Shown: positions 1 to 58,640, counted from the stretch's first letter. The stretch: 64,000 nt of DNA from Eledone cirrhosa (GCA_964016885.1 OZ024741.1:194990001-195054000); one strand, 5' to 3'. Numbers and translations are program-made. Notes: generated from the sequence alone by a model not told the origin.

Positions 1-157
1 TGGCCTATGTTATATATTGTATGTGCCTATGTTATATATTGTATGCTGCCTATGTTATATATTGTATGCTGTCTATGTTATATATTGTATGTGGCCTATG
101 TTATATATTGTATGCTGCCTATGTTATATATAGTATGCTACCTATGTTATATATTGT

Positions 158-25800: not shown

Positions 25801-27740
25801 TATGTCATATATTGTATGTGGCCTATGTTATATATTGTATGTGGGCTATGTTATATATTGTATGTGGCCTATGTTATATATTGTATGTGCCTATGTTATA
25901 TATTGTATGCTGCCTATGTTATATATAGTATGCTACCTATGTTATATATTGTATGTGGCCTATGTTATATATTGTATGTGGGCTATGTTATATATTGTAT
26001 GTGGGCTATGTTATATATTGTATATGGGCTATGTTATATATTGTATTTTGCCTATGTTATATATTGTATGCTGCCTATGTTATATATTGTATACTGCCTA
26101 TGTTATATATAGTATGCTACCTATGTCATATATTGTATGTGGCCTATGTTATATATTGTATGTGGGCAATGTTATATATTGTATGTGGCCTATGTTATAT
26201 ATTGTATGTGCCTATGTTATATATTGTATGCTGCCTACGTTATATATTGTATACTGCCTATGTTATATATAGTATGCTACCTATGTTATATATTGTATGT
26301 GGCCTATGTTATATATAGTATGTGGCCTATGTTATATATTGTATGTGGCCTACGTTATATATTGTATGCTGCCTATGTTATATATAGTATGCTACCTATG
26401 TTATATATTGTATGTGGCCTATGTTATATATAGTATGTGGCCTACGTTATCTATTGTATGCTGCCTATGTTATATATAGTATGCTACCTATGTCATATAT
26501 TGTATGTGGCCTCTGTTATATATTGTATACTGCCTATGTTATATATTGTATGCTGCCTATGTTATATATTGTATGTGGCCTATGTTATATATTGTATGTG
26601 GCCTATGTCATATATTGTATGCTGCCTATGTTATATATTGTATGCTGCCTATGTCATATATTGTATGTGGCCTATGTCATATATTGTATGCTGCCTATGT
26701 TATATATTGTATGTGGCCTATGTTATATATAGTATGTGGCCTACGATTTATATATTGTATGCTGCCTATGTTATATATAGAATGCTACCTATGTCATATA
26801 TTGTATGTGGCCTATGTTATATATTGTATACTGCCTATGTTATATATTGTATGCTGTCAATGTTATATATAGTATGTGGCCTACGTTATATATTGTATAC
26901 TGTCTATGTTATATATTGTATACTGCCTATGTTATATATAGTATGCTACCTATGTCATATATTGTATGTGGCCTATGTTATATATTGTATGTGGCCTATG
27001 TTATATATTGTATGTGGCCTATGTTATATATTGTATGTGGCCTATGTTATATATTGTATGCTGCCTATGGTATATATTGTATGCTGTCTATGTTATATAT
27101 TGTATGTGACCTATATTATATATTGTATGCTCCCTATGTTATATATTGTATGTGGCCTATGTTATACATTGTATGCTGCCTATGTTATATATTGTATGTT
27201 GCCTATGTTATATATTGTATGCTGCCTATGTTATATATTGTATGCTGCCTATGTTATATATTGTATGCTGCCTATGTTATATATTGTATGTGGCCTATGT
27301 TATATATTGTATGTGCCTATGTTATATATTGTATGCTGCCTATGTTATATATTGTATGCTGTCTATGTTATATATTGTATGTGGCCTATGTTATATATTG
27401 TATGCTGCCTATGTTATATATAGTATGCTACCTATGTTATATATTGTATGTGGCCTATGTTATATATTGTATGTGGGCTGTTATATATTGTATCTGGGCT
27501 ATGTTATATATTGTATATGGGCTATGTTATATATTGTATTTGGCCCATGTTATATATTGTATGCTGCCTATGTTATATATTGTATACTGCCTATGTTATA
27601 TATACTATGCTACCTATGTCATATATTGTATGTGGCCTATGTTATATATTGTATCTGGGCTATGTTATATATTGTATGTGGCCTATGTTATATATTGTAT
27701 GTGCCTATGTTATATATTGTATGCTGCCTATGTTATATAT
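22900..27740 (+). repeat. Duplication at offset 3329 bp at the right end of the homogeneous domain
   Basis: ORFs 23083/26412, 23108/26437 and 24119/27448. TACGATTT at 23413/26742. Confidence 0.8.
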
Positions 27741-27799
27741 TGTATGTGACCTATATTATATATTGTATGCTGCCTATGTTATATATTGTATGTGGCCTA

Positions 27800-30700
27800 T
27801 GTTATACATTGTATGCTGCCTATGTTACATATTGTACGTTGCCTATGTTATGTATTGTATGCTGCCTATGTTATATATTGTATGCTGCCTATGTTATATA
27901 TTATATGTTGCGTATGTTATATATTGTATGCTGCCTATATTATATATTGTATGCTGCCTATGTTATATATTGTATGTGGCCTATGTTTTATATTGTATGC
28001 TGCCTATGTTATATATTGTATGTGGCCTATGTTATATATTGCATGCTGTCTATGTTATATATAGTATGTTACCTATGTTATATATAGTATGCTACCTATG
28101 TTATATATTGTATGTGGCCTATGCTATATATTGTATGTGGGCTATGTTATATATTGTATATGGGCTATGTTGTATATTGTATGTGGCCTATGTTATATAT
28201 TGTATGTGCCTATGTTATATATTGTATGCTGCCTATCTTATATATTGTATGCTGGCTATGTTATATATTGTATGTGGCCTATGTTATATATTGTATGCTG
28301 CCTATGTTATATATAGTATGCTACCTATGTTATATATTGTATGTGGGCTATGTTATATATTGTATGTGGGCTATGTTATATATTGTATATGGGCTATGTT
28401 ATATATTGTATGTGGCCTATGTTATATATTGTATGCTGCCTATGTTATATATTATATGTGGCTTATGTTATATATTGTATGTGGCCTATTATATATATTG
28501 TATGTGGGCTATGTTATATAGTGTATGCTGCCTTTGTTCCATATTGTATGTGGCCTATGTTACATATTGTATGTGGGCTATGTTATATATTGTATGCGGC
28601 CTATGTTATATGTGGTATTCTGCCTATGTTATATAGTGTATGCTGCCTATGTTATACATTGTATGCTGCCTATGTTATATATTGTATGCTGCCTATGTTA
28701 TATATTGTATGTGGCCTATGTTATATATTGTATGAGGCCTATGTTATACATTGTATGCTGCCTATGTTATATATTGTATGCTGCCTATGTTATATATTGT
28801 ATGTTGTCTATGTCATATATTGTATGCTGCCTATGTTATATATTGTATGCTGCCTATGTTATATATTGTATGCTGCCTATGTTATATATTGTATGCTGCC
28901 TATGTTATATATTGTATGTGGCCTATGTTATATATTGTATGCTGCCTATGTTATATATTGTATGTGGCCTATATTATATATTGTATGTGGCCTATGTTAT
29001 ATATAGTATGTGGCCCATGCTATATATTGTATGTGGGCTATGTTATATATTGTATGCTGCCTATATTATATATTATATGTGGCCTATGTTATATATAGTA
29101 TGCGGCCTATGTTATATATTGTATGCTGCCTATGTTATATTTTGTATGCGGCCTATGTTATATATTGTATGCGGCCTATGTTATATATTGTATGCCTACT
29201 ATGTTATTTATTGTATGTGGCCTATATTAAATATTGTATGCTGCCTATGTTATATAATGTATGTAGCCTATGTTATATATTGTATGCTGCCTATGTTATA
29301 TATTGTATGCTGCCTATGTTATATATTGTATGAGGCCTTTGTTATATATATTATGCTGCGTATGTTATATATTGTATGTAACCTATGTTATATATTATAT
29401 GCTGCCTAGGTTATATATTGTATGTAGCCTATGTTATATATTGTATGTGGCCTATGTTATATATTTATGCTGCCTATGTTATATATTGTATGCTGCCTAT
29501 GTTATATATTGTATGATGCCTTTGTTATATATTGTATGTGGCCTATGTTATATATTGTTTGTGGCCTATGTTATATATTGTATGATGCCTAAGTTTTATT
29601 TGGTATGAGGCCTATGATATATATGGTTTGTGACCTATGTTTATATATTTTATTCTGCCTATGTTATATATTGTATGATGCCTATATTATATATTGTAAG
29701 TTGCCTATGTTATATATTGTATGCTGCCTATGTTATATATTGTACGTGGCCTATGTTATATATTGTATGTGATCTATGCTATATATTGTATGCTGCCTAT
29801 GTTATATATAGTATGTGGCCTATGTTATATATTGTATATGGCCTATGTTATATATTGTATGCTGCCTATGTTATATATTGTATGTGGTCTATGTTATATA
29901 TTGTATGTGGCCTACGTTATATATTGTATGTGGCCTATGTTACATATTGTATGCGGTATATGTTATATATTGTATGTGGCCTATGTTATATATTGCATGC
30001 TGCCTATGTTATATATTGTATGCTGCCTATGTTATATATTGTATGTGGCCTACGTTATATATTGTATGCTGCGTTATATATTATGTGTGGCCTATGTTAT
30101 ATATTGTATTTGGCCTATGTTATACGTTGTATGCTGCCTATGTTATATATTGTATGTATCCTATGTTATATATTGTATGTTGCCGATGTTTTATATTGTT
30201 AGTGGCCTATGTTATGTATTGTATGCTACCTATGTTATATATTGTATGTGGCCTATGTTATATATTGTATGTGGCCTATGTTATATATTGTATGTGGCAT
30301 ATGTTATATATTGTATACTGCTTATGTTATATATTGTATGCCGCCTATGTTATATATTGTATGTGGCCTATGTTATATAGTGTATGCGGCATATGTTATA
30401 TATTGTATGTAGTCTATGTTATATATTGTGTCGGGCCTATGTTACATATTGTATGATGCCTAAGTTTTATTTGGTATGAGGCCTATGATATATATGGTCT
30501 GTGACCTATGTTTATGTATTGTATTCTGCCTATGTTATATATTGTATGATGCCTATTTTATATATTGTATGTGGCCTATGTTATTTATTGTATACGACAT
30601 ATGTTATATATTGTATGCTGCTTATGTTATAGATTGTATGCTGCCTATGTTATATATTGTATGTGACCTATGTTATATATTGTATGTGGCCTATGTTATA

Positions 30701-33700
30701 TGTTGTATGTGGCCTATGTTATATTTTGTATGGGGCCTATGTTATATATTGTATGCTGCCTATGTAATGTATTGTATCTAGCCTATGTTATATATTGTAT
30801 GCTGCCTATGTTATATATTGTATGTGGTATGCTGCCTATGTTACATATTGTATGCGGCTTATGTTATATATTGTATGTGGCCTATGTTACATATTGTATG
30901 CTGCCTATGTTATACATTGTATGTTTCCTATGTTATATATTGTATGTGGCCTATGTTATATATTGTATGTAGTCTATGTTATATATTGTGTGGGGCCTAT
31001 GTTATATATTGTATGTGGCCTAAGTTATATATTGTATGCTGCCTATGTTATATATTGTATGTGGCCTATGTTATATATTGTATGCTGCCTATATTATATA
31101 TTATATGTGGCCTATGTTATATATTGTATGTGGCCTATGTTATATATTGTGTTCGGCATATGTTATATATTGTATGCTGCCTATGTTATATATTGTATGT
31201 GGCCTATTTTATATATTGTATGGGGCCTATGTTATATATTGTATGCTGCCTATGTTATATATTGTGTGGGGCCTATGTTATATATTGTATGCTGCCTATG
31301 TTGTATATTGTATGTGGCCTATGTTATATATCGTATGTGGCCTATGTTGTATATTGTTTGTGGCCTATGTTATATATTGTATGTGGCCTATGTTATATAT
31401 AGTATGTGGCCTATTTTATATATTGTATGAGGCCTATGTTATATATTGTATGTGGCATATGTTATATATTTTATACTGCCTATGTTATATATTGTATGCG
31501 GCCTATGTTATATATTATGTGTGGCCTATGTTATATATAGTATGCTGCCTATGTTATATATTGTATGTGGCCTATGTTGTATATTGTTTGTGGCCTATGT
31601 TATATATTGTATGTGGCCTATGTTATATATAGTATGTGGCCTATGTTATATATTGTATGTGGCCTATGTTATATATTGTATGTGGCATATGTTATATATT
31701 GTATACTGCCTATGTTATATATTGTATGCGGCCTATGTTATATATTGTATGTGGCCTATTTTATATATTGTATGGGGCCTATGTTATATATTGTATGCTG
31801 CCTATGTTATATATTGTGTGTGGCCTATGTTATATATTGTATGCTGCCTATGTTGTATATTGTATGTGGCCTATGTTATATATCGTATGTGGCCTATGTT
31901 GTATATTGTATGTGGCCTATGTTATATATAGTATGTGGCCTATTTTATATATTGTATGTGGCCTATGTTATATATTGTATGTGGCATATGTTATATATTG
32001 TATACTGCCTATGTTATATATTGTATGCGGCCTATGTTATATATTATGTGTGGCCTATGTTATATATAGTATGCTGCCTATATTGTATATTGTATGTGGC
32101 CTATGTTGTATATTGTTTGTGGCCTATGTTATATATTGTATGTGGCCTATGTTATATATAGTATGTGGCCTTTGTTATATATTGTATGTGGCCTATGTTA
32201 CATATTGTATGTGGCCTATGTTATATATTGTATGTGGCCTATGTTATATACTGTATGCGGCATATGTTATATATTGTATGTAGTCTATGTTATATATTGT
32301 GTGGGGCCTATGTTATGTATTGTATGTGGCCTAAGTTATATATTGTATGCTGCCTATGTTATATATTGTATGTGGCCTATGTTATATATTGTATGCTGCC
32401 TATGTTATATATTATATGTGGCCTGTGTTATATATTGTATGTGGCCTATGTTATATATTGTGTTCGGCATATGTTATATATTGTATGCTGCCTATGTTAT
32501 ATATTGTATGTGGCCTATTTTATATATTGTATGGGGCCTACGTTATATATTGTATGCTGCCTATGTTATGTATTGTGTGTGGCCTATGTTATATATAGTA
32601 TGCTGCCTATGTTATATATTGTATGATGCATAAGTTTTATTTGGTATGAGGCCTATGATATATATGGTCTGTGACCTATGTTTATGTATTGTATTATGCC
32701 TATGTTATATATTGTATGATGCCTATGTTATATATTGTATGTGGCCTATGTTATTTATTGTATGCGACATATATTATATATTGTATGCTGCCTATGTTAT
32801 ATATTGTATGTGGCCTATGTTATATATCGTATGTGATCTAGGCTATATATTGTATACTGCCTATTTATATATTGTATGAGGCCTAAGTTATATATTGTAT
32901 ACTGCCTATGTTATATATATTATTTTGGCCTATGTTATATAATGTATGTGGCCTATGTTATATATTGTATCTGGCCTATGTTATCTATTGTATATGGCCT
33001 ATGTTATATATTGTATGCTGCCTATGTTATATATTGTATATGGTCTATATTATATATTGTATGCTTCCTGTGTTATATATTGTATGCTGCCTATGTTATA
33101 TATAGTATGTGACCTATGTTATATATTGTGTGTGGCCTATGTTATATATCGTATGTAGCCTATGTTATATTTTGTATGTGGCCTACGTTATATATTGTAT
33201 GCTGCCTATGTTATATATTATGTGTGGCCTATGTTATATATTGTATGCTGCCTATGTTATATATTGTATGTCGCCTACGTTATATATTGTATGCTGCCTA
33301 TGTTATATATAATGTGTGGCCTATGTTATATATTGTATTCGGCCTATGTTATACATTGTATGCTGCCTATATTATATATAGTATGTGGCCTATTTTATAT
33401 ATTGTATGCTACCTATGTTATATATTGTATGTGGCGTATGTTATATATTGGAATTCTGCATGTTATTTATTGTATGCTGCCTATGTTATATATTGCATGT
33501 GGCCTATGTTATATATTGTATGTGGCCTATGTTATATATTGTGTTCGGCATATGTTATATATTGTATGCTGCCTATGTTATGTATAGTATGTGACCTATG
33601 TTATATATTGTGTGTGGCCTATGTTATATATCGTATGTAGCCTATGTTATATTTTGTATGTGGCCTACGTTATATATTGTATGCTGCCTATGTTATATAT

Positions 33701-36700
33701 TATGTGTGGCCTATGTTATATATAGTATGCTGCCTATGTTATATATTGTATGTGGCCTATGTTATATATTGTATGCTGCCTATGTTATATATTATATGTG
33801 GCCTATGTTATATATTGTATGTGGCCTATGTTATATATTGTGTTCGGCATATGTTATATATTGTATGCTGCCTATGTTATATATTGTATGTGGCCTATTT
33901 TATATATTGTATGGGGCCTATGTTATATATTGTATGCTGCCTATGTTATATATTGTGTGTGGCCTATTTTATATATAGTATGCTGCCTATGTTATATATT
34001 GTATGATGCATAAGTTTTATTTGGTATGAGGCCTATGATATATATGGTCTGTGACCTATGTTTATGTATTGTATTCTGCCTATGTTATATATTGTATGAT
34101 GCCTATGTTATATATTGTATGTAGCCTATGTTATTTATTGTATGCGACATATGTTATATATTGTATGCTGCCTATGTTATATATTGTATGTGGCCTATGT
34201 TATATATCGTATATGATCTAGGCTATATATTGTATGCTGCCTATTTATATATTGTATGAGGCCTAAGTTATATATTGTATACTGCCTATGTTATATATAT
34301 TGTTTTGGCCTATGTTATATAATGTATGTGGCCTATGTTATATATTGTATGGGAAATATGTTAAATATTGTATGCTGCGTATGTTATATATTGTATGTGG
34401 CCTATGTTATCTATTGTATATGGCCTATGTTATATATTGTATGCTGCCTATGTTATATATTGTATATGGTCTATATTATATATTGTATGCTGCCTGTGTT
34501 ATATATTGTATGCTGCCTATGTTATATACAGTATGTGACCTATGTTATATAATGTGTGTGGCCTATGTTATATATCGTATGTAGCCTATTTTATATTTTG
34601 TATGTGGCCTACGTTATATATTGTATGCTGCCTATGTTATATATTATGTGTGGCCTATGTTATATATTGTATGCTGCCTATGTTATACATTGTATGTGGC
34701 CTACGTTATATATTGTATGCTGCCTATGTTATATATAATGTGTGGCCTATGATATATATTGTATTTGGCCTATGTTATACATTGTATAATGCCTATGTTA
34801 TATATTGTATGTGGCCTATGTTATATATTGTGTTCGGCATATGTTATATATTGTATGCTGCCTATGTTATATGTTGTATGTGGCCTATGTTATATATTGT
34901 ATGGAGCCTATGTTATATATTGTATGCTGCCTATGTTATATATTGTATGTGGCCTATGTTTTATATTGTATGCCTACTATGTTATTTATTGTATGTGGCC
35001 TATATTATATATTGTATGCTGCCTATGTTATATGAGGTATGTAGCCTATGTTATATATTGTATGCTGCCTATGTCATATATTGTATGCTGCCTATGTTAT
35101 ATATTGTATGAGGCCTATGTTATATATATTATGCTGCGTATGTTATATATTGTATGTAACCTATGTTATATATTATATGCTGCCTATGTTATATATCGTA
35201 TGTAGCCTATGTTATATATTGTATGTGGCCTATGTTATATATTTATGCTGCCTATGTTATATATTGTATGCTGCCTATGTTATATATTGTATGATGCCTT
35301 TGTTATATATTGTATGCAGCCTATGTTATATATTGTATGTGGCCTATGTTATATATTGTTTGTGGCCTATGTTATATATTGTATGATGCCTAAGTTTTAT
35401 TTGGTATGAGGCCTATGATATATATGGTTTGTGACCTATGTTTATATATTTTATTCTGCCTATGTTATATATTGTATGATGCCTATAATATATTGTAAGT
35501 GGCCTATGTTATATATTGCATGCGACATATGTTATATATTGTATGCTGCCTATGTTATATATTGTATGGTGCCTATGTTATATATTGTATGTGATCTATG
35601 CTATATATTGTATGCTGCCTATGTTATATATAGTATGTGGTCTATGTTATATATTGTATATGGCCTATGTTATATATTGTATGCTGCCTATGTTATATAT
35701 TGTATGTGGCCTATGTTATATATTGTATGCTGCCTATGTTATATATTGTATGCTGCCTATGTTATATATTGTATGTGGCCTACGTTATATATTGTATGCT
35801 GCCTATGTTATATAATATGTGTGGCCTATGTTATATATTGTATTTGGCCTATGTTATACATTGTATGCTGCCTATGTTATATATTGTATGTATCCTATGT
35901 TATATATTGTATGCTGCCTATGTTATATATTGTATGTTGCCGATGTTTTATATTGTATGTGGCCTATGTTATGTATTGTATGCTACCTATGTTATACATC
36001 GTATGTGGCCTATGTTGTATATTGGAATTCTGCATTTTATATATTGTATGTGGCCTATGTTATATATTGTATGCTGCCTATGTTATATATTGTATGTGGC
36101 CTATGTTATATATTGTATGTGATCTATGCTATATATTGTATGCTGCCTATGTTATATATTGTATGTGGCCTATAATATATTGTATGTGGCCTATGTTATT
36201 TATTGTATGCGACATATGTTATATATTGTATGATGCCTATGTTATATATTGTATGCTGCCTATGTTATATATTGTATGTGACCTATGTTATATATTGTAT
36301 GTGGCCTATGTTATATTTTGTATGTGGCCTACGTTATATATTGTATACTGCCTATGTTATATATTATGTGTGGCCTATGTTATATATTGTATGCTGCCTA
36401 TGTTATATATAGTATGTGGCCTATGTTATATATTGTATATGGCCTATGTTATATATTGTATGCTGCCTATGTTATATATTGTATGCTGCCTATGTAAGGT
36501 ATTGTATCTAGCCTATGTTATATATTGTGTGCTGCCTATGTTATATATTGTATGTGGTCTATGTTATATATTGTATGCTGCCTATGTTACATATTGTATG
36601 CGGCTTATGTTATATATTGTATGTGGCCTATGTTACATATTGTATGCTGCCTATGTTATACATTGTATGCTTCCTATGTTATATATTGTATGTGGCCTAT

Positions 36701-39700
36701 GTTATATATTGTATGCTTCCTATGTTATATATTGTATGTGGCATATGTTATATATTGTATACTGCATATGTTATATATTGTATGCGGCCTATGTTATATA
36801 TTGTATGTGGCCTATGTTATATAGTGTATGCGGCATATGTTATATATTGTATGTAGTCTATGTTATATATTGTGTGGGGCCTATGTTATATATTGTATGT
36901 GGCCTAAGTTATATATTGTATGCTGCCTATGTTATATATTGTATGTGGCCTATGTTATATATTGTATGCTGCCTATGTTATATATTATATGTGGCCTATG
37001 TTATATATTGTATGTGGCCTATTATATATATTGTGTTCGGCATATGTTATATATTGTATGCTGCCTATGTTGTATATTGTATGTGGCCTATGTTATATAT
37101 TGTATGTGGCCTATATTATATATTGTTTGTGGCCTATGTTATAGATAGTATGCTGCCTATGTTATATATTGTATGTGGCCTATGTTGTATATTGTTTGTG
37201 GCCTATGTTATATATTGTATGTGGCCTATGTTATATATAGTATGTGGCCTATGTTATATATTGTATGTGGCCTATGTTATATATTGTATGTGGCATTTGT
37301 TATATATTGTATACTGCCTATGTTATATATTGTATGCGGCCTATGTTATATATTGTATGTGGCCTATGTTATATAGTGTATGCGGCATATGTTATATATT
37401 GTATGTAGTCTATGTTATATATTGTGTGGGGCCTATGTTATATATTGTATGTGGCCTAAGTTATATATTGTATGCTGCCTATGTTATATATTGTATGTGG
37501 CCTATGTTATATATTGTATGCTGCCTATGTTATATATTATATGTGGCCTATGTTATATATTGTATGTGGCCTATGTTATATATTGTGTTCGGCATATGTT
37601 ATATATTGTATGCTGCCTATGTCATATATTGTATGTGGCCTATTTTATATATTGTATGGGGCCTATGTTATATATTGTATGCTGCCTATGTTATATATTG
37701 TGTGTGGCCTATGTTATATATAGTATGCTGCCTATGTTATATATTGTATGATAAGTTTTATTTGGTATGAGGCCTATAATATATATGGTCTGTGACCTAT
37801 GTTTATGTATTGTATTCTGCCTATGTTATATATTGTATGTGGCCTATGTTATTTATTGTATGCGATATATATTATATATTGTATTCTGCCTATGTTATAT
37901 ATTGTATGTGGCCTATGTTATATATCGTATGTGATCTAGGCTATATATTGTATACTGCCTATTTATATATTGTACGAGGCCTAAGTTATATATTGTATAC
38001 ACCCTATGTTATATATAATATTTTGGCCTATGTTATATAATGTATGTGGCCTATGTTATATATTGTATGGGAAATATGTTATATATTGTATGCTGCGTAT
38101 GTTATATATTGTATGTGGCCTATGTTATCTATTGTATATGGCCTATGTTATATATTGTATGCTGCCTATGTTATATATTGTATGCTGCCTATGTTATATA
38201 TAGTATGTGACCTATGTTATATATTGTGTGTGGCCTATTTTATATATCGTATGTAGCCTATGTTATATTTCGTGCGTGGCCTACGTTATATATTGTATGC
38301 TGCCTATGTTATATATTATGTGTGGCCTATGTTATATATTGTATGCTGCCTGTGTTATATATTGTATGCTGCCTAAGTTATGTATAGTATGTGACCTATG
38401 TTATATATTGTGTGTGGCCAATGTTATATATCGTATGTAGCCTATGTTATATTTTGTATGTGGCCTACGTTATATATTGTATGCTGCCTATGTTATATAT
38501 TATGTGTGGCCTATGTTATATATAGTATGCTGCCTATGTTATATATTGTATGTGGCCTACGTTATATATTGTATGCTGCCTATGTTATATATAATGTGTG
38601 GCCTATGTTATATATTGTATTTGGCCTATGTTATACATTGTATGCTGCCTATGTTATATATTGTATGTGGCCTATGTTATATATTGTATGCTACCTATGT
38701 TATATATTGTATGTGGCGTATGTTATATATTGGAATTCTGCATGTTATATATTGTATGCTGCCTATGTTATATATTGTATGTGGCCTATGTTATATATTG
38801 TATGTGGCCTATGTTATATATTGTGTTCGGCATATGTTATATATTGTATGCTGCCTATGTTATATGTTGTATGTGGCCTATGTTATATATTGTATGGGGC
38901 CTATGTTATATATTGTATGCTGCCTATGTTATATATTGTATGTGGCCTAAGTTATATATTGTATGTGGCCTATGTTATATATTGTATGCTGCCTATGTTA
39001 TATATTATATGTGGCCTATGTTATATATTGTATGTGGCCTATGTTATATATTGTGTTCGGCATATGTTATATATTGTATGCTGCCTATGTTATATATAGT
39101 ATGCTGCCTATGTTATATATTGTATGATGCATAAGTTTTATTTGGTATGAGGCCTATGATATATATGGTCTGTGACCTATGTTTATGTATTGTAAGCTGC
39201 CTATGTTATATATAATGTGTGGCCTATGTTATATATTGTATTTGGCCTATGTTATACATTGTATGCTACCTATGTTATATATTGTATGTAGCTACATACC
39301 ATATATATCATAGGCCTATGATATATATTGTATGTAGCGTATGTTATATATTGGAATTCTGCATGTTATATATTGTATGCGGCCTATGTTATATATTGTA
39401 AGTTATATATTGTATGTGTCCTATTTTATATATTGTATGCTGCCTATGTTATATATTATATGTGGCCTATGTTATATATTGTATGTGGCCTATGTTATAT
39501 ATTGTGTTCGGCATATGTTATATATTGTATGCTGCCTATGTTATATATAGTATGCTGCCTATGTTATATATTGTATGATGCATAAGTTTTATTTGGTATG
39601 AGGCCTATGATATATATGTGACCTATGTTTATGTATTGTAAGTTTTATTTGGTATGTTATATATTGGAATTCTGCATGTTATATATTGTATGCTGCCTAT

Positions 39701-42700
39701 GTTATATATTGTATGTGGCCTATGTTATATATTGTATGTGGCCTATGTTATATATTGTGTTCGGCATATGTTATATATTGTATGCTGCCTATGTTATATG
39801 TTGTATGTGGCCTATGTTATATATTGTATGGGGCCTATGTTATATATTGTATGCTGCCTATGTTATATATTGTATGAGGCCTATGTTATATATATTATGC
39901 TGCGTATGTTATATATTGTATGTGGCCTATGTTATATATTATATGCTGCCTATGTTATACATTGTATGTAGCCTATGTTATATATTGTATGTGGTCTATG
40001 TTATATATTTATGCTGCCAATGTTATATATTGTATGATGCCTTTGTTATATATTGTATGTGGCCTATGTTATATATTGTATGCGGCATATGTTATATATT
40101 GTATGCAGCCTATGTTATATATTGTATGTGGCCTACGTTATATATTGTTTGTGGCCTATGTTATATATTGTATGTGGCCTATGTTATATATAGTATGTGG
40201 CCTATGTTATATATTGTATGTGGCCTATGTTATATATTGTATGTGGGCTATGCTATATATTGTATGTTGCGTATGTTATATATAATATGTGGTATATGTT
40301 ATATATTGTATGCGACCTATTATATATATTGTATGTGGCCTATGTTATATATTGTATGCTGCCTATGTTATATATTGTATGCGTCCTATGTTATGTATTG
40401 TATGTGGCCTATGTTATATATTGTATGCTGCCTATGTTATACATTGTATGCTTCCTGTGTTATATATTGTATGCGTCCTATGTTATGTATTGTATGTGGC
40501 CTATGTTATATATTGTATGCTGCCTATGTTATACATTGTATGCTTCATATGTTATATATTGTATGTGGCCTATGTTATATAATGTGTGCGGCATATGTTA
40601 TATATTGTATGTAGTCTATGTTATATATTGTGTGGGCCCTATGTTATATATTGTGTGGTGCCTATGTTATATATTGTATGATGCCTAAGTTTTATTTGGT
40701 ATGAGGCCTATGATATATATGGTTTGTGACCTATGTTTTTATATTTTATTCTGCCTATGTTATATATTGTATGATGCCTATGTTATATATTGTAAGTGGC
40801 CTATGTTATATATTGTATGCGACATATGTTATATAATGTATGCTGCCTATGTTATATATTGTATGTGGCCTATGTTATATATTGTATGTGATCTATGCTA
40901 TATATTGTATGCTGCCTATGTTATATATTGTATGCTGCCTATGTTATATATAGTATGTGGCCTATGTTATATATTGTATATGGCTTATGGCATATATTGT
41001 ATGCTGCCCATGTTATATATTGTATGTGGTCTATGTTATATATTGTATGCTGCCTATGTTATATATTGTATGCTGCCTATGCTATTTATTGCATGTGGCC
41101 TATGTTATATATTATATGCTGCCTATGTTATATATTGTATGTAGCCTATGTTATATATTGTATGTGGCCTATGTTATATATTTATGCTGCCTATGTTATA
41201 TATTGTATGCTGCCTATGTTATATATTGTATGATGCCTTTGTTATATATTGTATGTGGCCTATGTTATATATTGTATGCGGCATATGTTATATATTGTAT
41301 GCAGCCTATGTTATATATTGTATGTGGCCTATGTTATATACTGTTTGTGGCCTATGTTATATATTGTATGTGGCCTATGTTATATAGAGTATGAGGCCTA
41401 TGTTATATATTGTATGTGGCCTATGTTATATTGTATGTGGGCTATGCTATATATTGTATGCTGCCTATGTTATATATTGTATGTGGCCTATGTTATATGT
41501 TGTATGCGGCCTATTATATATATTGTATGTGGCCTATGTTATATATAGTATGCGGACTATGTTATGTATTGTATGTGGCCTATGTTATATATTGTATGCG
41601 GACTATGTTATGTATTGTATGCCGCCTATGTTATACATTGTATGCTTCCTGTGTTATATAATGTATGTGGCCTATGTTATATATGTTATATATTGTATGC
41701 TTCATATATTGTATGTGGCCTATGTTATATATTGTATGCTGCCTATGTTATATATTGTATGCGGACTATGTTATGTATTGTATGTGGCCTATGTTATATA
41801 TTGTATGCCGCCTACGTTATACATTGTATGCTTCCTGTGTTATATAATGTATGTGGCCTATGTTATATATGTTATATATTGTATGCTTCATATGTTATAT
41901 ACTGTATGTGGCATATGTTATATATTGTATACTGCCTATGTTATATACTGTATGCGGCCTATGTCATATATTGTATGTGGCCTATGTTATATAATGTATG
42001 CGGCATATGTTATATATTGTATGTAGTCTATGTTATATATTGTGTGGGTCCTATGTTATATATTGTGTGGGGCCTATGTTATATATTGTATGATGCCTAA
42101 GTTTTGAGGCCTATGTTATATATTGTATGCGGCATATGTTATATATTGTATGCAGCCTATGTTATATATTGTATGTGGCCTATGTTATATATTGTTTGTG
42201 GCCTATGTTATATATTGTATGTGGCCTATGTTATATATAGTATGAGGCCTATGTTATATATTGTATGTGGCCTATGTTATATTGTATGTGGGCTATGCTA
42301 TATATTGTATGCTGCCTATGTTATATATAGTTTTTGGCCTATGTTATATATTGTATGCGGCCTATTATATATATTGTATGTGGTCTATGTTATATATTGT
42401 ATGCTGCCTATTTTATATATTGTATGCGGACTATGTTATGTATTGTATGTGGCCTATGTTATATATTGTATGCCGCCTATGTTATACATTGTATGCTTCC
42501 TGTGTTATATAATGTATGTGGCCTATGTTATATAGTGTATGCGGCATATGTTATATATTGTATATAGTCTATGTTATATATTGTATGATGCCTAAGTTTT
42601 ATTTGGTACGAGGCCTATGATATATATGGTCTGTGACCTATGTTTATGTATTGTATTCTGCCTATGTTATATATTGTATGATGCCTATGTTATATATTGT

Positions 42701-45300
42701 ATGTGGCCTATGTTATTTATTGTATGCGACATATGTTATATATTGTATGCTGCCTATGTTATATATTGTATGTGGCCTATGTTATATATTGTATGTGATC
42801 TAGGCTATATATTGTATGCTGCCTATTTATATATTTTATGAGGCCTAAGTTATATATTGTATACTGCCTTTGTTATATATATTATTTTGGCCTATGTTAT
42901 ATATTGTATGTGGCCTATGTTATATATTGTATGAGAAATATGTTATATATTGTATGCTGCGTATGTTATATATTGTATGTGGCCTATGTTATCTATTGTA
43001 GATGGCCTATGTTATATATTGTATATGGTCTATGTTATATATTGTATGCTGCCTGTGTTATATATTGTATGCTCCCTATGTTATATATAGTATGTGACCT
43101 ATGTTATATATTGTGTGTGGCCTATGTTATATATCGTATGTAGCCTATGTTATATTTTGTATGTGGCCTACGTTATATATTGTATGCTGCCTATGTTATA
43201 TATTATGTGTGGCCTATGTTATATATTGTATGCTGCCTGTGTTATATATTGTATGCTGCCTATGTTATATATTGTATGCTGCCTATGTTATATATTGTAT
43301 GTGGCCTATGTTATATATTGTATGCTGCCTATTTTGTATATTGTATGTGGCCTGAGTTATATATTGTATGTGGCCTATGTTGTATATTGTTTGTGGCCTA
43401 TGTTATATATTCTATGTGGCCTATGTTATATATAGTATGTGGCCTATGTTATATAATGTATTTGGCCTATGTTATACATTGTATGCTGCCTATGTTATAT
43501 ATTGTATGTGGCCAATGTTATATATTGTATGCTACCTATGTTATATATTGTATGTGGCGTATGTTATATATTGGAATTCTGCATGTTATATATTGTATGC
43601 TGCCTATGTTATATATTGTATGTGGCCTATGTTATATATTGTATGGGGCCTATGTTATATATTTATGCTGCCTCTGTTATATAATGTATGTAGCCTATGT
43701 TATATATTGCATGTGGCCTATGTTATATATTTATGCTGCCTCTGTTATATATTGTATGCTGCCAATGTTATATATTGTATGATGCCTTTGTTATATATTG
43801 TATGTGGCCTATGTTATATATTGTATGCTTCATATGTTATATATTGTATGTGGCATATGTTACATATTGTATACTGCCTATGTTATATACTGTATGCGGC
43901 CTATGTTATATATCGTATGTGATCTATGCTATATATTGTATGCTGCCTATGTTATATATTGTATGTGGCCTATGTTATATATTGTAAGTGGCCTATGTTA
44001 TATATTGTATGCGACATATGTTATATATTGTATGCTGCCTATGTTATATATTGTATGTGGCCTATGTTATATATTGTATGTGATCTATGCTATATATTGT
44101 ATGCTGCCTATGTTATATATTGTATGTGGCCTATGTTATATATTGTATGCTGCCTATGTTATATATAGTATGTGGCCTATGTTATATATTTTATATGGCC
44201 TATGTTATATATTGTATGCTGCCCATGTTATATATTGTATGTGGCCTATGTTATATATTGTATGCTGCCTGTGTTATATATAGTATGTGGCCTTCGTTAT
44301 ATATTGTATGTGGCTTATGTTATATATTGTATGCGGTATATATTATATATTGTATGTGGCCTATGTTTTATATTGTATGCTGCATATGTTATATATTGTA
44401 TGCTGCCTATGTTATATATTTTATGTGGCCTATGTTATATATTGGAATTCTGCATGTTATATATTGTATGTGGCCTATGTTATATATTGTATGCTGCCTA
44501 TGTTATATATTGTATGTGACCTATGTTATATGTTGTATGTGGCCTATGTTATATATTGTATGGGGCCTATGTTATATATTGTATGCTGCCTATGTAATGT
44601 ATTGTATCTAGCCTATGTTATATATTGTATGCTGCCTATGTTATATATTGTATGTGGTCTATGTTATATATTGTATGCTGCCTATGTTACATATTGTATG
44701 CGGCTTATGTTATATACTGTATGTGGCCTATGTTATATGTTGTATGTGGCCTATGTTATATATTGTATGTGGCCTATGTTATATATTGTATGCTGCCTAT
44801 GTTATATATTATATGTGGCCTATGTTATATATTGTATGTGGCCTATGTTATATATTGTGTTCGGCATATGTTATATATTGTATGCTGCCTATGTTATATA
44901 TTGTATGTGGCCTATTTTATATATTGTATGGGGACTATGTTATATATTGTATGCTGCCTATGTTATATATTGTATGGGGCCTATGTTATATATTGTATGC
45001 TGCCTATGTTATATATTGTATGCTGCCTATGTTATATATTGTATGTGGCCTATGTTATATATTGTATGCCTACTATGTTATATATTGTATGCCTACTATG
45101 TTATATAGTGTATGTGGCCTACGTTATATATTGTATGCTGCCTATGTTATATATTGTATGGGGCCTATGTTATATATTGTATGCTGCCTATGTTATATAT
45201 TGTATGCTGCCTATGTTTTATATTGTGTGTGGCCTATGTTATATATTGTATGCGGCCTATGTTAAACATGGTATGCTGCCTATGTTATATATTGTATGTA
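27800..45300 (+). repeat. Diverged layer 1, marked by the AAGTTTTATTTGGTATGAGGCCTATGATATATATGGT(T/C)TGTGACC cassette and GGAATTCTGC monomers
   Basis: Cassette at ~29591, 30462, 32632, 34012, 35392, 37753, 39133, 39584, 40687, 42099 (truncated) and 42594. GAATTC at 33451, 36025, 38733, 39354, 39667, 43574 and 44445. I saw neither marker before 27.8 kb. Confidence 0.85.
39269..39338. other. Single inverted monomer (39292-39314) forming two overlapping palindromes
   Basis: The sequence reads CCTATGTTATATATTGTATGTAG|CTACATACCATATATATCATAGG|CCTATGATATATATTGTATGTAGC. The middle unit is the reverse complement of its neighbours: 21/23 pairs with the left unit and 23/24 with the right. Confidence 0.95.
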
Positions 45301-48300
45301 GACTATGTTATATATTGTATGCTGCCTATGTTATATAATGTATGTAGTCTATGTTATATTTGGTATGAGGCCTATGATATATATGGTTTGTGACCTATGT
45401 TTATATATTGTATTCTGCCTATGTTATATATTGTATGTGGCCTATGTTATCTACTGTATATGTCCTATGTTATATATTGTATGCTGCCTAGGTTATATAA
45501 TGTATGCTGCCTATGTCATATATTGTATGGGGACTATGTTATATATTGTATGCTGCCTATGTTATATATTGTATGGGGCCTATGTTATATATTGTATGCT
45601 GCCTATGTTATATATTGTATGCTGCCTATGTTATATATTGTATGTGGCCTATGTTATATATTGTATGCCTACTATGTTATATATTGTATGCCTACTATGT
45701 TATATAGTGTATGTGGCCTACGTTATATATTGTATGCTGCCTATGTTATATATTGTATGCTACCTATGTTATATATTGTATGCAACCTATGCTATATATT
45801 GTATGATGCCTATGTTATATATTGTATGTGGGCTATGTTATATATTGTATGCTGCCTAAGTTATATATTGTATGTGGCCTATGTTATATATTGTATGCTG
45901 CCTATGTTATATATTGTATGCTGCCTATGTTATATATTGTATGTGGCGCCTATGTTATATATTGTATGCTACCTATGTTATATATTATGTGTGGCCTACG
46001 TTATATATTGTATGCTGCCTATTATATATACTTTATGTGGCTTAAGCTATATGTTGCTGCGGCCTATATTATATATTCTATGCTGCCTATGTTATATATT
46101 GTATGGTACCTATGTTATATATTGTATGCTGGCTATGTTATATATTGTCTGTGGCCTATGTTATATATTTTATGCGGCCTATGTTATACATGGTATGCTG
46201 CCTATGTTATATATTGTATGTAGCCTATGTTATATATTGTATGCTGCCTATGTTATATATATACTGTATGCTGTCTTTGTTATATATTGTGTCTGGCCAA
46301 TGTTATTTATTGTATACTTCCTATGTTATATATTGTATCCTGCCAATGTTATATATTGTATGTGGCCTATGTTATAGATTGTATGTGGCCCTATGTTATA
46401 TATTGTATGCTGCCTCTGTTATATATTGTATGTGGTCTATGACATATTGTATGCTGCCTATGTTATATATTGTATGTGCCCTATGTTATATATTTATGCT
46501 GGCTATGTTATATATTGTCTATGGCCTATGTTATATATTGTATGCGGCCTACGTTATACATGGTATGCTGCCTATGTTATATATTGTATGTTGCCTATGT
46601 TATATATTGTATGCTGCCTATGTTATATATATACTGTATGCTGTCTTTGTTATATATTGTATGCTGCCTATGTTATATATTGTGTGTGGCCTATTTTAGA
46701 TATTGTATGCGGCCTACGTTATACATGGTATGCTGCCTATGTTATATATTGTATGTAGCCTATGATATATATTGTATGCTGCCTATGTTATATATTGTAT
46801 GTGGCATATGTTATATATTGTATACTGCCTATGTTATATATTTTATGCGGCCTATGTTATATATTGTATACTGCCTATGTTATATATTGTATGCTACCTA
46901 TGTTATATATTGTATGCTACCTATGCTATATATTGTATGATGCCTATGTTATATATTGTATGTGGCCTATGTTATATATTGTATGCTGTCTAAGTTATAT
47001 ATTGTATGTGGCCTATGTTATATATTGTATGCTGCCTATGTTATATATTGTATGCTGCCTATGTTATATATTGTATGTGTTATATGTTATATATTGTATA
47101 CTGCTTATGTTATATATTTTATGCGGTCTATGTTATATATTGTATACTGCCTATGTTATATATTTTATGCGGCCTATGTTATATATTGTATGTGGCCTAT
47201 GTTATATAGTGCATGCGGCATAAGTTATGTATTGTATGCTGCCTATGTTATATATTGTATGCGGCCTACGTTATACATGGTATGCTGCCTATGTTATATA
47301 TTGTATGTAGCCTATGTTATATATTGTATGCTGCCTATGTTATATATTGTATGTGGCATATGTTATATATTGTATACTGCCTATGTTATATATTTTATGC
47401 GGCCTATGTTATATATTGTATGTGGCCTATGTTATATAGTGCATGCGGCATAAGTTATATATTGTATGTAGTCTATGTTATATATTGTGTGGGGCCTATG
47501 TTATATATTGTATGATGCCTATGTTATATTTGGTATGAGGCTTATGTTATATATTCTATGCTGCTTATGTTATATATTGTATGTGGCCTATGTTTTCTAT
47601 TGTATATGGCCTATTTATATATTGTATGCTGCCTATGTTATATAATGTATGTGGTCTATGTTATATATTGTGTGTGGCCTGCGTTATATATTGTATGCGG
47701 CCTATGTTATACATTGTATGCTTCCTAAGTTTTATATGTTATGTGGCCTATGTTATATGTTGTATGCTACATATGTTATATATTGTATGCTGCCTATGTT
47801 ATATATTGTATTTGGGCTATGTAATATATTGTACGTGGCCTATGTTATATATTGTATACTGCCTATGTTATATATTATGTGTGGCCTATGTTATATATTA
47901 TATACGGCCTATGTTATACATTGTATGCGGCCTATGTGATATATTGTAATTCTGCCTGTTATATATTTTAAGTGGCCTATGTTATATATTGTATGCTGCC
48001 TATGTTATCTATTGTATGCTACCTATTTTATATATTGCATGCGGCCTATGTTATATATTGTATGTGGCCTATGTTATATACTGTATGCGGCATATGTTAT
48101 ATATTGTATGTAGCCTATGATATATATGGTTTGTGACCTATGTTATATATTGTATTCTGCTTATGTTATATATTGTATACTGCCTATGTTATATATAGTA
48201 GGTGGCCTATGTTATATATTGTATGCTGCATATCTTATATATTGTATATCTTATATATTGTATGTGGCCTAAGTTATATATTGTATACTGCCTATATTAT

Positions 48301-51200
48301 ATATTTTATGTGGCCTATGTTATAGATTGTATGCTGCCTATGTTATATATTGTATGCTGCCTATGTTATATATTGTATGTGTTATATGTTATATATTGTA
48401 TACTGCTTATGTTATAAATTTTATGCGGTCTATGTTATATATTGTATACTGCCTATGTTATATATTTTATGCGGCCTATGTTATATATTGTATGTGGCCT
48501 ATGTTATATAGTGCATGCGGCATAAGTTATATATTGTATGCTGCCTATGTTATATATTGTATGCGGCCTACGTTATACATGGTATGCTGCCTATGTTATA
48601 TATTGTATGTAGCCTATGTTATATATTGTATGCTGCCTATGTTATATATTGTATGTGGCGACTACGTTAAATATTGTATGCTGCCTATGTTATATATTAT
48701 GTGTGGCCTATGTTATATATTGTATGTGGCCTATTTTATACATTGTCTGCTGTCTTTGTTATATATTGTATGTAGCCTATGTTATATATTGGAATTCTGC
48801 TTGTTATATATTGTATGTGGCCGAATATATATCGTATGCTGCCTATGTTATATATTTTAAGTGGCCTATGGTATATATTGTATGTGGCCTATGTTATATA
48901 TTGTATGCTGCCTATGTTATATGTTGTATGTGGCCTATGTTATATATTGTATGGGGCCTATGTTATATATTGTATGCTGCCTATGTTATATATTGTATGT
49001 GGCCTAGGTTATATATTGTATGCCTACTATGTTATATATTGTATGTTGCCTATGTTATATATTGTATGTGGCCTATGTTATATATAGTATGCTGCCTATG
49101 TTATATATTGTATGTGGCCTATGTTATATATTGTATGTGGCCCTATGTTATATATTGTATGCTGCCTATGTTATATATTGTATGTGACCTATGTTATATA
49201 TTGTATACTGCCGATGTAATATAGTGCATGTGGCCTATGTTATATATTATATGCTACCTACGTTATATATTGTATGCTGCTTATGTTATATATTGAATGC
49301 TGCCTATTATATATATTTTATGTGGCTTATGCTATATGTTGCTGCGGCCTATATTATATATTGTATGCTGCCTATGTTATATATTATATGGTACCTATGT
49401 TATATATTGTATGTGATCTATGACATATTGTATGCTGCCTATGTTATATATTGTATGTGCCCTATGTTATATATTGTATGCTGGCTATGTTATATATTGT
49501 CTGTGGCCTATGTTATATATTGTATGCGGCCTATGATATACATGGTATGCTGCTTATGTTATATATTGTATGTAGCCTATGTTATATATAGTATGCTGCC
49601 TATGTTATATATTGTATGTAGCCTATGTTATATATTGTATGCTGCCTATGTTATATATATACTGTATGCTGTCTTTGTTATATATTGTATCTGGCCAATG
49701 TTATTTATTGTATACTTCCTATGTTATATATTGTATCCTGCCAATGTTATATATTGTATGTGGCCTACCTTATATATTGTATGCTGCCTATGTTATATAT
49801 TGTGTGTGGCCTATGTTATACATTGTATGCGGCATACGTTATACATGGTATGCTGCCTATGTTATATATTGTCTGTAGCCTATGATATATATTGTATGCT
49901 GCCTATGTTATATATTGTATGTGGCATATGTTATATATTGTATACTGCCTATGTTATATATTTTATGCGGTCTATGTTATATATTGTATACTGCCTATGT
50001 TATATATTTTATGCGGCCTATGTTATATATTGTATGTGGCCTATGTTATATAGTGCATGCGGCATAAGTTATATATTGTATGCTGCCTATGTTATATATT
50101 GTATGTGGCCTACGTTATACATGGTATGCTGCCTATGTTATATATTGTATGTAGCCTATGTTATATATTGTATGCTGCCTATGTTATATATTGTATGTGG
50201 CATATGTTATATATTGTATACTGCCTATGTTATATATTTTATGCGGCCTATGTTATATATTGTATACTGCCTATGTTATATATTTTATGCGGCCTATGTT
50301 ATATATTGTATGTGGCCTATGTTATATAGTGCATGCGGCATAAGTTATATATTGTATGTAGTCTATGTTATATATTGTGTGGGCCCTATGTTATATATTG
50401 TATGATGCCTATGTTATATTTGGTAAGAGGCCTATAATATATATGGTTTGTGACCTATGTTTATATATTGTATTCTGCCTATATTATATATTGTATGATG
50501 CCTATGTTATATACTGTATGCGACCTATGTTATATATTCTATGCTGCTTATGTTATATATTGTATGTGGCCTATGTCTTCTATTGTATATGGCCTATTTA
50601 TATATTGTATGCCGCCTATGTTATATAATGTATGTGGTCTATGTTATATATTGTGCGTGGCCTGCGTTATATATTGTATGAGGCCTATGTCATACATTGT
50701 ATGCTTCCTAAGTTTTATATGTTATGTGGCCTATGTTATATATTGTATGCTACCTATGTTATATACTGTATGCTACATATGTTATATATTGTATGCTGCC
50801 TATGTTATATATTGTATGTGGGCTATGTAATATATTGTACGTGGCCTATGTTATATATTGTATACTGCCTGTTATATATTATGTGTGGCCTATGTTATAT
50901 ATTATATGCGGCCTATGTTATACATTGTATGCGGCCTATGTGATATATTGTAATTCTGCCTGTTATATATTTTAAGTGGCCTATGTTATATATTGTATGC
51001 TGCCTATGTTATATATTGTATGCTACCTATTTTATATATTGTATGCGGCCTATGTTATATATTGTATGTGGCCTATGTTATATACTGTATGCGGCATATG
51101 TTATATATTGTATGTAGCCTATGATATATATGGTTTGTGACCTATGTTATATATTGTATTCTGCCTATGTTATATATTGTATGCTGCATATCTTATATAT
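45300..51200 (+). repeat. Diverged layer 2 with an imperfect ~3.0-3.3 kb duplication
   Basis: Local markers ACATGGTATGCTG and ATAGTGCATGCGGCATAAG. Paired markers: GTTGCTGCGGCC ~46053/49338, CTTCCTAAGTTTTATATGTT ~47721/50704, GTAATTCTGCCTGTT ~47946/50950. Confidence 0.75.
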
Positions 51201-58400: not shown

Positions 58401-58640
58401 TATTGTATGTGGCCTATGTTATATATTGTATGTGGCCTATGTTATATATTGTATGCTGCCTTCGCTATATATTGTATGCTGCCTAAATTATATATTGTAA
58501 GTGGCCTATGTCATATACTCTATGTGGGCTGTGTTATATTTTGTATGTGGCCTATGTTATATATTGAATGCGGCATATGTTATATATCGTATGTCGCCTA
58601 CGTCATATATTGTATGTGGCCCACGTTATATATTGTATGC
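55455..58640 (+). repeat. 1608-bp tandem duplication (70 monomers minus 2 bp)
   Basis: ORF starts 55651/57259, 55766/57374, 56164/57772, 56220/57828, 56683/58291 and 56893/58501, with near-identical translations. Confidence 0.9.

What the first reader, a model, noticed from the sequence alone, without database searches (positions are those of the whole stretch)
39269..39338. One flipped monomer in ~2,800: a 23-bp inverted triplication with double palindrome
Seen: the array is unidirectional wherever I read it, except 39292-39314 (CTACATACCATATATATCATAGG), a reverse-complement monomer in exact register between two forward monomers. This gives two spacer-less palindromes: one centred on AG|CT (39291/39292, 21/23 pairs) and one on AGG|CCT (39314/39315, 23/24 pairs). 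All three units share the uncommon GTAG ending. The middle and right units also share the TATGAT variant. Established: forward-inverted-forward triplications arise by replication template switching at short inverted repeats, and AT-rich palindromes can extrude cruciforms and be fragile. Inference: the self-complementary AGCT and GGCC junctions primed two fold-back switches, leaving a site with two mutually exclusive hairpins. This may be a minimal seed of strand switching in a satellite.
Basis: partly seen in the sequence, partly recalled or inferred. Interest (0 to 1): 0.8.

Follow-up and report, generated by a model that had tools for sequence, protein, structure and literature searches.

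The report
Lone backward repeat from polymerase hopping
In a 143-kb array of 23-base repeats, one unit out of about 6,200 lies backwards in the assembly; it is likely the scar of a DNA polymerase hopping between neighbouring repeats, a known kind of mutation with no sign of function, and it has not been checked against raw reads.

Summary
39292-39314 is the only reverse monomer among 6,224 in a single-locus, otherwise one-way 143-kb satellite, and both spacer-less palindromes are as described (21/23 and 23/24 pairs). An un-inverted parent block lies 621 bp upstream, at the same offset on both sides, so the event is net length-neutral. The inverted unit looks like a hybrid: its first part mirrors the adjacent GTAG monomer, and 39298-39317 exactly mirrors a variant monomer 140 bp upstream that starts in the only local AGGCCT. 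Three of the array's 10 private out-of-register indels lie within 345 bp downstream. Best reading (0.45): one error-prone synthesis tract with serial short-homology template switches (MMBIR/FoSTeS-like). Rivals: a two-switch event plus point mutations (0.25); an artefact or single molecule (0.18), since no reads were listed. The unit has not spread, so 'seed of strand switching' is unsupported. Known mutation class, unusually legible because monomer variants act as barcodes.

The parts
39292..39314 (-). The single reverse-orientation monomer. Read on the minus strand it carries T7A, T15G and the GTAG end, a combination found in no forward monomer of the array
39269..39291 (+). Left forward monomer (GTAG end); likely donor of the first ~8 bases of the inverted unit
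39315..39337 (+). Right forward monomer (T7A + GTAG, unique in the array); likely a hybrid of the M start and the GTAG monomer end
39269..39314 (.). Palindrome 1, no spacer, 21 of 23 pairs; predicted ssDNA hairpin -10.5 kcal/mol, z -4.8
39291..39338 (.). Palindrome 2, no spacer, 23 of 24 pairs; 39292-39338 folds at -12.8 kcal/mol, z -5.3
39246..39268 (+). Monomer with the 5' mark of parent monomer A (C12) and the 3' end of parent monomer C (GCTA); likely an A|C hybrid from a 46-bp in-register slip
39338..39360 (+). Landmark monomer E (CGTATG start, EcoRI site) that fixes the register on the right
38575..38759 (+). Un-inverted parent block; 39196-39267 and 39337-39380 are exact copies of it at offset -621
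39130..39176 (+). Variant monomer pair L-M. M carries T7A+T15G; their junction holds the only AGGCCT of 38575-39196 (39150-39155); 39150-39169 is the exact reverse complement of 39298-39317
39399..39400 (+). Private 9-bp out-of-register deletion junction (2-base overlap)
39426..39618 (+). Exact 193-bp copy of 38975-39167, ending in a private 5-bp deletion inside the copy of M (2-base overlap at 39617-39618)
39639..39656 (+). 18-base templated piece between two private out-of-register jumps (overlaps 4 and 5 bases). It leaves L just before AGGCCT and lands at the start of E
39652..39876 (+). Exact 225-bp copy of 38718-38942
1..64000 (+). Host satellite: 23-bp monomer, about 30% GC, single locus. 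It runs from about 7 kb before to about 72 kb after the window (G000:C2, about 194.983-195.126 Mb) on a 416-Mb contig

Best explanation
The backward unit is likely the scar of one error-prone stretch of DNA synthesis in which the polymerase jumped several times between nearby repeat units, and it likely has no function. Inferred path, written on the top strand (the mirror order is equally possible). Synthesis copies the parent block and slips two monomers in register. It passes the GTAG monomer and turns onto the opposite strand at the G|C before monomer E (2-base overlap). It copies back a few bases and slips in register by 116 bases onto monomer M. It copies back to the AGGCCT in front of M and turns forward there (6-base overlap). 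It then slips back onto the GTAG monomer (7-base overlap) and carries on. It goes on jumping for about 300 bases more (9-bp and 5-bp deletions, two further jumps). Because the template is periodic, the two extra monomers would be absorbed by sliding two monomers along, which would explain the unchanged length. A staged version cannot be told apart: a 139-bp inverted triplication between M and E, later trimmed by two in-register deletions. Shown: the sequence, the parent, the exact matches, the overlaps, the clustering. Inferred: the order, the single event, the inter-strand route, the pathway.
For: The parent is at the same offset on both sides. 39298-39317 is an exact 20-base reverse match to the L|M junction, and 39312-39328 an exact forward match to it. 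The M copies at 39153 and 39604 are the two nearest other T7A carriers. Only 2 of 69 single changes and 19 of 2,277 double changes would match a monomer within 500 bp this well. With a collapsed pre-state plus 39100-39222 as donors, four switches leave 0 substitutions, whereas two switches leave 3. Overlaps at seven computed junctions are 2, 6, 7, 2, 2, 4 and 5 bases, inside the 2-12 bp range (mean 3.7) reported for MMB-TI junctions (PMC8421209). Three of 10 private out-of-register events of 3 bp or more lie within 345 bp downstream (P about 2e-5 for the array, 2e-3 for the 28.5-52 kb domain). The last jump joins the same two landmarks, L|M and the start of E.
Against: The pre-event state (A|C hybrid plus GTAG) is hypothetical; all three close paralogs have GTGG there. 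It trades substitutions for jumps: about 5 jumps + 2 substitutions from the parent, against 3 + 5 or 4 + 4 for the two-switch routes. If distant monomers may donate, the M match is unremarkable: 8 of 69 and 222 of 2,277 in the domain, 21 of 69 and 607 of 2,277 in the array. Other lineages carry GTAG and T7A at similar places (94906, 99522, 48753; GTAG|T7A junctions at 46751, 48106, 51110, 51768). Overall mosaic breakpoint density here is ordinary: 17% of array windows and 28% of domain windows are as high, and private k-mers are only in the top 4%. The 400-bp window for the cluster test was chosen after seeing the data. Short overlaps are cheap in a tandem repeat. No reads were available.
Confidence: 0.45

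Rival explanations
1. Two-switch event on one monomer (the first reader's triplication, or insertion of a reverse copy of the right monomer at the G|C between two near-identical neighbours), with the T7A and T15G differences arising as point mutations and the nearby indels as separate events.
For: With the inverted unit removed as the pre-state, two switches and one substitution rebuild the site; from a single GTAG monomer, two switches and three substitutions. The shared GTAG end (1.7% of monomers) fits common descent. Two-switch events are common and known: 872-1,121 unmasked per human genome (PMC9435742). Events with point 4 before point 1, which a triplication needs, were found in PMC7954356.
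Against: The needed changes happen to copy the nearest variant monomer (19 of 2,277 locally). From a single monomer the second turn has no overlap, because the base before it is the A of GCTA. It explains neither the exact length neutrality nor the three private indels within 345 bp. PMC5453318 saw no 4-before-1 events.
Confidence: 0.25
2. Not inherited: a chimera from DNA amplification or library preparation, a single somatic molecule, or a local consensus error carried into the assembly.
For: No reads could be consulted. The unit and its neighbouring junctions are each single-copy. Amplification chimeras are mostly inverted, local and primed at 2-21 bases (PMC1855051). Long reads hold many single-read rearrangements, some with fragments from both strands (PMC5829575).
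Against: Base accuracy in this array looks high: 13 private 16-mer runs in 20 kb of the homogeneous left part, and exact local copies of 193 and 225 bp. The event needs at least two turns that return in exact register. Other private out-of-register indels occur in the same domain and some have been duplicated (41685/41871; 48247, 51205, 55337), so such events do get inherited here.
Confidence: 0.18
3. One length-neutral four-point template switch replaced parent monomer C by a reverse copy of its neighbour D; the other differences came by substitution or conversion.
For: The register is preserved exactly. Type 1-4-3-2/3-2-1-4 events are among the commonest (PMC5453318, PMC7954356). Distant paralogs have GTAG after A and T7A before E.
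Against: The best single four-point fit to the parent leaves 8 substitutions in 160 bases, including the same G-to-A change in two monomers, beside exact flanks. Only 5.5% of ape events are length-neutral (PMC7954356).
Confidence: 0.07
4. A double-strand break with hairpin-sealed ends (for example a hAT excision footprint), opened off-centre and joined in register, gave palindromic extensions of 8 and 14 bases on the two ends.
For: Zero-spacer palindromes on both sides are what opened hairpins leave (own knowledge, recalled). A long open hAT transposase frame lies 8 kb left of the array.
Against: There is no 8-bp target-site duplication: the bases before the left turn and after the right turn differ. 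The extensions are long for such footprints (recalled). It does not explain G15 or the downstream jumps.
Confidence: 0.05

Closest known systems
MMBIR templated insertions (MMB-TI; PMC8421209; passages and one Results section read)
   Same: Inverted copy of a nearby template, 10 bp or more, short overlaps at junctions, sometimes several consecutive switches.
   Different: Sits in a satellite, so two of the jumps are in-register slips between monomers. The second donor is about 125-140 bp away (their search looks within 100 bp). Pathway genetics untested.
Short-range template switch mutations, four-point model (PMC5453318: abstract and Results parts 1-2 of 3; PMC7954356: passages and part of one section; PMC9435742: passages)
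   Same: Short reverse-complement fragment that creates a new inverted repeat; size in range (median 12, maximum 128 bp); AT-rich context; likely inter-strand.
   Different: One switch-and-return against the parent leaves 8 substitutions. Those surveys filter out repeat-masked sequence and do not model multiple rounds.
Small inverted triplications (SIT; PMC13334657: abstract, Results parts 1-2 of 3, section 2.6)
   Same: Forward-reverse-forward layout; the smallest inverted fragments reported are 20 bp; palindromic junctions can prime the turn; the inferred 139-bp span between the two turns is near their medians (148/160/148 bp).
   Different: No spacer at either junction (median 30 bp in SITs); no net gain of DNA; the three units are not identical.
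Strand switches in satellite arrays (human HSat3B5 and beta satellite, over 200 breakpoints, 10.1101/2021.07.12.452052; Tribolium madens macro-dyads, PMC13081366; passages read)
   Same: Change of monomer orientation inside a tandem array.
   Different: Those are kilobase to megabase blocks or conserved sites in thousands of copies. This is one monomer, once, unamplified.
Palindromic AT-rich repeats (PATRRs; passages of review PMC7999016)
   Same: AT-rich, near-perfect, spacer-less palindrome.
   Different: 48 bp against about 200-595 bp. The same review counts about 180,000 near-perfect palindromes over 40 bp in the human genome, so this size is not rare in itself.

Membership tests
MMB-TI / serial template-switch insertion | Inserted piece of 10 bp or more is an inverted copy of a nearby template | tested here: met
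   23-bp unit; 22 of 23 bases mirror the right neighbour; an exact 20-base mirror lies at 39150-39169
MMB-TI / serial template-switch insertion | Microhomology at the junctions | tested here: inconclusive
   Overlaps of 2-7 bases on the four-switch path. The first turn's 2 bases were read from the parent by eye, because the script value used the post-event sequence. Zero at the second turn on the two-switch path. Overlaps are cheap in a repeat
MMB-TI / serial template-switch insertion | All junctions arise in one event | tested here: inconclusive
   Clustering P 2e-5 to 2e-3, window chosen after the fact; needs other haplotypes
MMB-TI / serial template-switch insertion | Origin at a broken or stalled fork, by the pathway's polymerases | not testable with these tools
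   Sequence of one assembly only
Four-point template switch mutation | One switch and one return explain the cluster against the ancestral sequence | tested here: not met
   8 substitutions remain against the parent; 1-3 remain only with hypothetical pre-states
Four-point template switch mutation | Reverse-complement fragment of 14 bp or more that creates a new inverted repeat | tested here: met
Small inverted triplication (SIT) | Forward-reverse-forward copies of one segment | tested here: inconclusive
   Layout present, but the units differ at 1-2 sites and the reverse unit matches a third monomer
Small inverted triplication (SIT) | Spacers between the arms (median 30 bp) | tested here: not met
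   0 bases at both centres
Small inverted triplication (SIT) | Net gain of two copies | tested here: not met
   Offset to the parent is -621 on both sides
Conserved satellite inversion sites (Tribolium macro-dyads) | Long inverted sub-arrays with conserved, multi-copy inversion sites | tested here: not met
   1 reverse monomer in 6,224; junction patterns match one place genome-wide
hAT excision footprint | Target-site duplication on both sides of palindromic additions | tested here: not met
   The 8 bases before the left turn and after the right turn differ; the feature itself is recalled
PATRR-type fragile palindrome | Several hundred bp; extrudes a cruciform and breaks in vivo | tested here: not met
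   48 bp with one mismatch; extrusion itself is not testable here

The most novel reading that the evidence does not exclude
This is a readable record of how a one-way satellite starts and then cancels a strand switch. A polymerase U-turn inside a periodic template is locked back into register: it slips between monomers while running backwards, turns again at the nearest AGGCCT, and the surplus DNA is absorbed by sliding, so a 139-bp excursion leaves one hybrid backward monomer and no change in length. If general, isolated backward monomers in satellites would be hybrids, length-neutral and clustered with out-of-register indels at the most diverged monomers. That would explain why young arrays stay one-way although template switching is frequent.
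Probability: 0.15. Interest if true: 0.55.

Novelty: new member of a known kind. Interest (0 to 1): 0.3.

Why it matters
As a single mutation scar it matters little: no function is indicated and it has not spread. Its value is as a worked example. The template-switch surveys I read filter out repeats, and the satellite strand switches I read about are large blocks, so the smallest step of strand switching in a satellite is poorly documented in those papers. Here monomer variants let each jump be assigned to a donor, which yields testable predictions (hybrid unit, length neutrality, co-clustered indels) for any complete assembly with reads.

Tried and rejected
Sequencing runs for 39150-39460: none was listed; that is no evidence either way, and no reads could be laid. 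A degenerate monomer-dimer pattern in metagenome contigs: 0 matches. Four monomer strings in the paper library: 0 papers. Searches on satellite inversions listed no title or abstract start about a single inverted monomer; I saw listings only, so this is a weak negative. Earlier findings of this scan: nothing. A search for further rare short reverse fragments of 13 bases or more with a template within 120 bp found only this site. Spacer inversion between the natural inverted repeat formed by the GCTA end of C and the start of E: rejected by inspection, because it predicts a product three bases shorter at the left turn. That hairpin is weak anyway (-1.3 kcal/mol in the parent, -3.1 with GTAG). 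A hairpin at L-M as the cause of the hotspot: not supported (-1.1 and -2.3 kcal/mol). The figure of 555 copied bases with 0 mismatches is not used as evidence, because the segments were picked for being exact. The script overlaps for the first turn and for the two-switch second turn were wrong by construction and were replaced by reading the parent. No supplements were read; event tables there could hold closer examples.

Full report
Observation. The window is one tandem array of a 23-bp monomer, 2,784.9 copies, about 30% GC. At 39292-39314 one unit reads in reverse. A two-strand profile scan scores it 29.2 reverse against -10.7 forward, and nothing else in the window comes close at k=23. The two palindromes have no spacer and pair 21 of 23 and 23 of 24 positions; base 39300 is unpaired in both. 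Single-strand folds give -10.5 and -12.8 kcal/mol (z -4.8 and -5.3, 0 of 200 shuffles as stable), against -3.9 (z -0.6) for a neighbouring control. Among 1,890 70-base windows sampled along the array (every monomer in 28.5-52 kb, every sixth elsewhere), the three that cover the site are the most stable; the next is -9.1 and the mean is -1.8. The right hairpin is favoured by about 5 kcal/mol, and the 48-bp duplex is far more stable than either (-52.4).

Extent and uniqueness. The window lies at G000:C2:194,990,001-195,054,000 in a 3.0-Gb assembly; the contig is 416 Mb. With 100 kb fetched on each side, the array runs from about -6,980 to 136,070 in window coordinates: 143.1 kb and 6,224 monomers. 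All 123 exact dimer hits and all 2,182 exact 20-mer hits in the genome are accounted for by this array, on one strand. The reverse unit is the only one among the 6,224, and three junction patterns each match this one place genome-wide. The flanks are microsatellite- and transposon-rich. Four monomer strings were found in no paper of the library.

The parent. Landmark monomers show un-inverted paralogs at 33320-33457, 38602-38739 and 43443-43580 with the order Z, A, B (GTGG), C (GCTA), D (GTGG), E. The block at 38575-38759 is the direct source: 39196-39267 and 39337-39380 copy it exactly, both at offset -621. The event therefore changed no length. Outside the inverted unit, the site differs from the parent at 39268, 39290, 39321, 39336 and 39381. 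The parent junctions are GTGG|CC, GCTA|CC and GTGG|CG. AGCT occurs nowhere in 38575-39196, and AGGCCT occurs once, at 39150. Any U-turn at a monomer end or start makes these centres, so their presence at the site is a result and not evidence of priming. A zero-spacer turn cannot be an intra-strand fold-back, because a hairpin loop needs 4-6 unpaired bases (PMC7999016, passage); inter-strand switching is what PMC5453318 infers for most short events.

Who donated the unit. Read on the minus strand, the unit has T7A, T15G and the GTAG end. The left neighbour has GTAG only; the right has T7A and GTAG, a pair found in no other monomer. Frequencies are 99, 63 and 102 of 5,935 regular monomers. T7A with T15G is the mark of monomer M (13 copies). 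39298-39317 is the exact reverse complement of the L|M junction, and 39312-39328 matches it forward; the two nearest other T7A carriers are M at 39153 and its copy at 39604. A match this good within 500 bp would come from 2 of 69 single changes or 19 of 2,277 double changes. It would come from 8 of 69 and 222 of 2,277 in the 28-52 kb domain, and 21 of 69 and 607 of 2,277 in the whole array, so the argument holds only if donors are local.

Histories compared. One four-point switch on the parent leaves 8 substitutions. A collapsed pre-state with one GTAG monomer needs two switches and 3 substitutions; with the inverted unit simply removed, two switches and 1; with the collapsed state plus 39100-39222, four switches and none. 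The script's own four-switch optimum used two 5-base pieces from other places; the path through M that I propose tiles the same bases, with overlaps of 2, 6 and 7 at its last three junctions and 2 at the first (read from the parent). Counting the steps needed to reach each pre-state, the totals from the parent are about 2 jumps + 8 substitutions, 3 + 5, 4 + 4 and 5 + 2. Against the M reading: other lineages carry GTAG after A and T7A before E (94906, 99522), A-GTAG-E (48753), or GTAG|T7A junctions (46751, 48106, 51110, 51768), so in-register conversion from afar could supply the same alleles.

The surroundings. Apart from the site itself and three point differences (39381, 39419, 39425), 39196-39876 is built of exact pieces of the 621 bases before it, at offsets -621, -460, -451, -446, -507 and -934. 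Its junctions include a 9-bp deletion, a 5-bp deletion inside the copy of M, and two jumps at 39639-39656 with overlaps of 2, 2, 4 and 5 bases, each unique in the array. Of 10 private out-of-register events of 3 bp or more in the array (9, one more confirmed), 3 lie within 345 bp of the unit: P about 2e-5 for the array and 2e-3 for the domain, with the window chosen afterwards. The last jump leaves L at the base before AGGCCT and lands at the second base of E, the two places where the proposed path turns; E is the only local CGTATG start and L one of few TAAG sites, so the overlap rules partly force this. Against a special cluster: total mosaic breakpoints here (12 in 470 bp) are reached by 17% of array windows and 28% of domain windows, and private k-mers are in the top 4% only.

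Mechanism. I commit to one unstable synthesis tract with serial short-homology switches (0.45). The two turns would be inter-strand, at G|C before E and at AGGCCT before M; the two slips between them are in register. The surplus of two monomers would be absorbed by the periodic template, which gives length neutrality without coincidence; this step is inference. A staged route through a 139-bp inverted triplication is equivalent in outcome, and PMC13334657 (section 2.6) reports that such structures are lost from plasmids, with slippage over the hairpin as the proposed route. Rivals: two switches plus point mutations (0.25), artefact or single molecule (0.18), one length-neutral four-point event (0.07), hairpin-capped break (0.05). 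On the artefact: no runs were listed. Accuracy in the homogeneous part of the array is high (13 private 16-mer runs in 20 kb), but amplification chimeras are mostly local and inverted (PMC1855051, passages), and long reads carry single-read rearrangements (PMC5829575, passages).

Comparison and novelty. It works like the MMB-TI templated insertions of PMC8421209 (2-12 bp overlaps, mean 3.7; complex multi-switch cases) and like the short template switches of PMC5453318, PMC7954356 and PMC9435742, whose high-confidence sets exclude repeat-masked sequence. It fails the single switch-and-return test. It fails two SIT features, spacers and net gain (PMC13334657). It is unlike the large or conserved satellite strand switches of human HSat3B5 (10.1101/2021.07.12.452052) and Tribolium (PMC13081366). 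At 48 bp it is well below the fragile PATRRs (PMC7999016). I read the passages or sections named under Closest known systems, no whole paper and no supplements. Searches listed no report of a lone inverted satellite monomer, a weak negative. Verdict: real in the assembly, unverified in reads, a new member of a known mutation class, without evidence of function or spread; interest 0.3.

Noticed in passing
window 39130-39176 and paralogs (37751, 39617, 39642-39656, 42103): The diverged L-M monomer pair (29 monomers, 676 bp of 143 kb) carries 4 of the 10 private out-of-register events. No hairpin is predicted there. Possibly a local hotspot for misaligned synthesis; noticed after the fact.
   Followed up: partly
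L012:2451-5171 (-), G000:C2:194,972,451-194,975,171: Open 907-residue hAT transposase frame (DUF4371, Dimer_Tnp_hAT) about 8 kb left of the array.
   Followed up: partly
whole array, window -6980 to 136070: Single-locus satellite with layered structure. The left 35 kb is very homogeneous (13 private 16-mer runs in 20 kb); 28.5-52 kb is a diverse mosaic (244 runs in 23.5 kb); later parts have repeat periods of about 1.6, 4.6, 1.8 and 2.3 kb. Both ends are abrupt, with no similarity between the flanks.
   Followed up: partly
window 41650-42110: A second cluster of out-of-register events: a 9-bp duplication present twice, a private 7-bp deletion and a private 9-bp deletion in L.
   Followed up: no
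window 38684-38723 (parent C-D-E): The GCTA end of C and the CG start of E form a weak natural inverted repeat around D. The G-to-A change that makes GTAG improves it (-1.3 to -3.1 kcal/mol), so GTAG could be a quasi-palindrome correction.
   Followed up: partly
window 93.5-101.6 kb equivalents (L017-L018): A 4,616-bp tandem duplication containing a distant paralog of the Z-A-B-C-D-E block with GTAG after A and T7A before E.
   Followed up: partly
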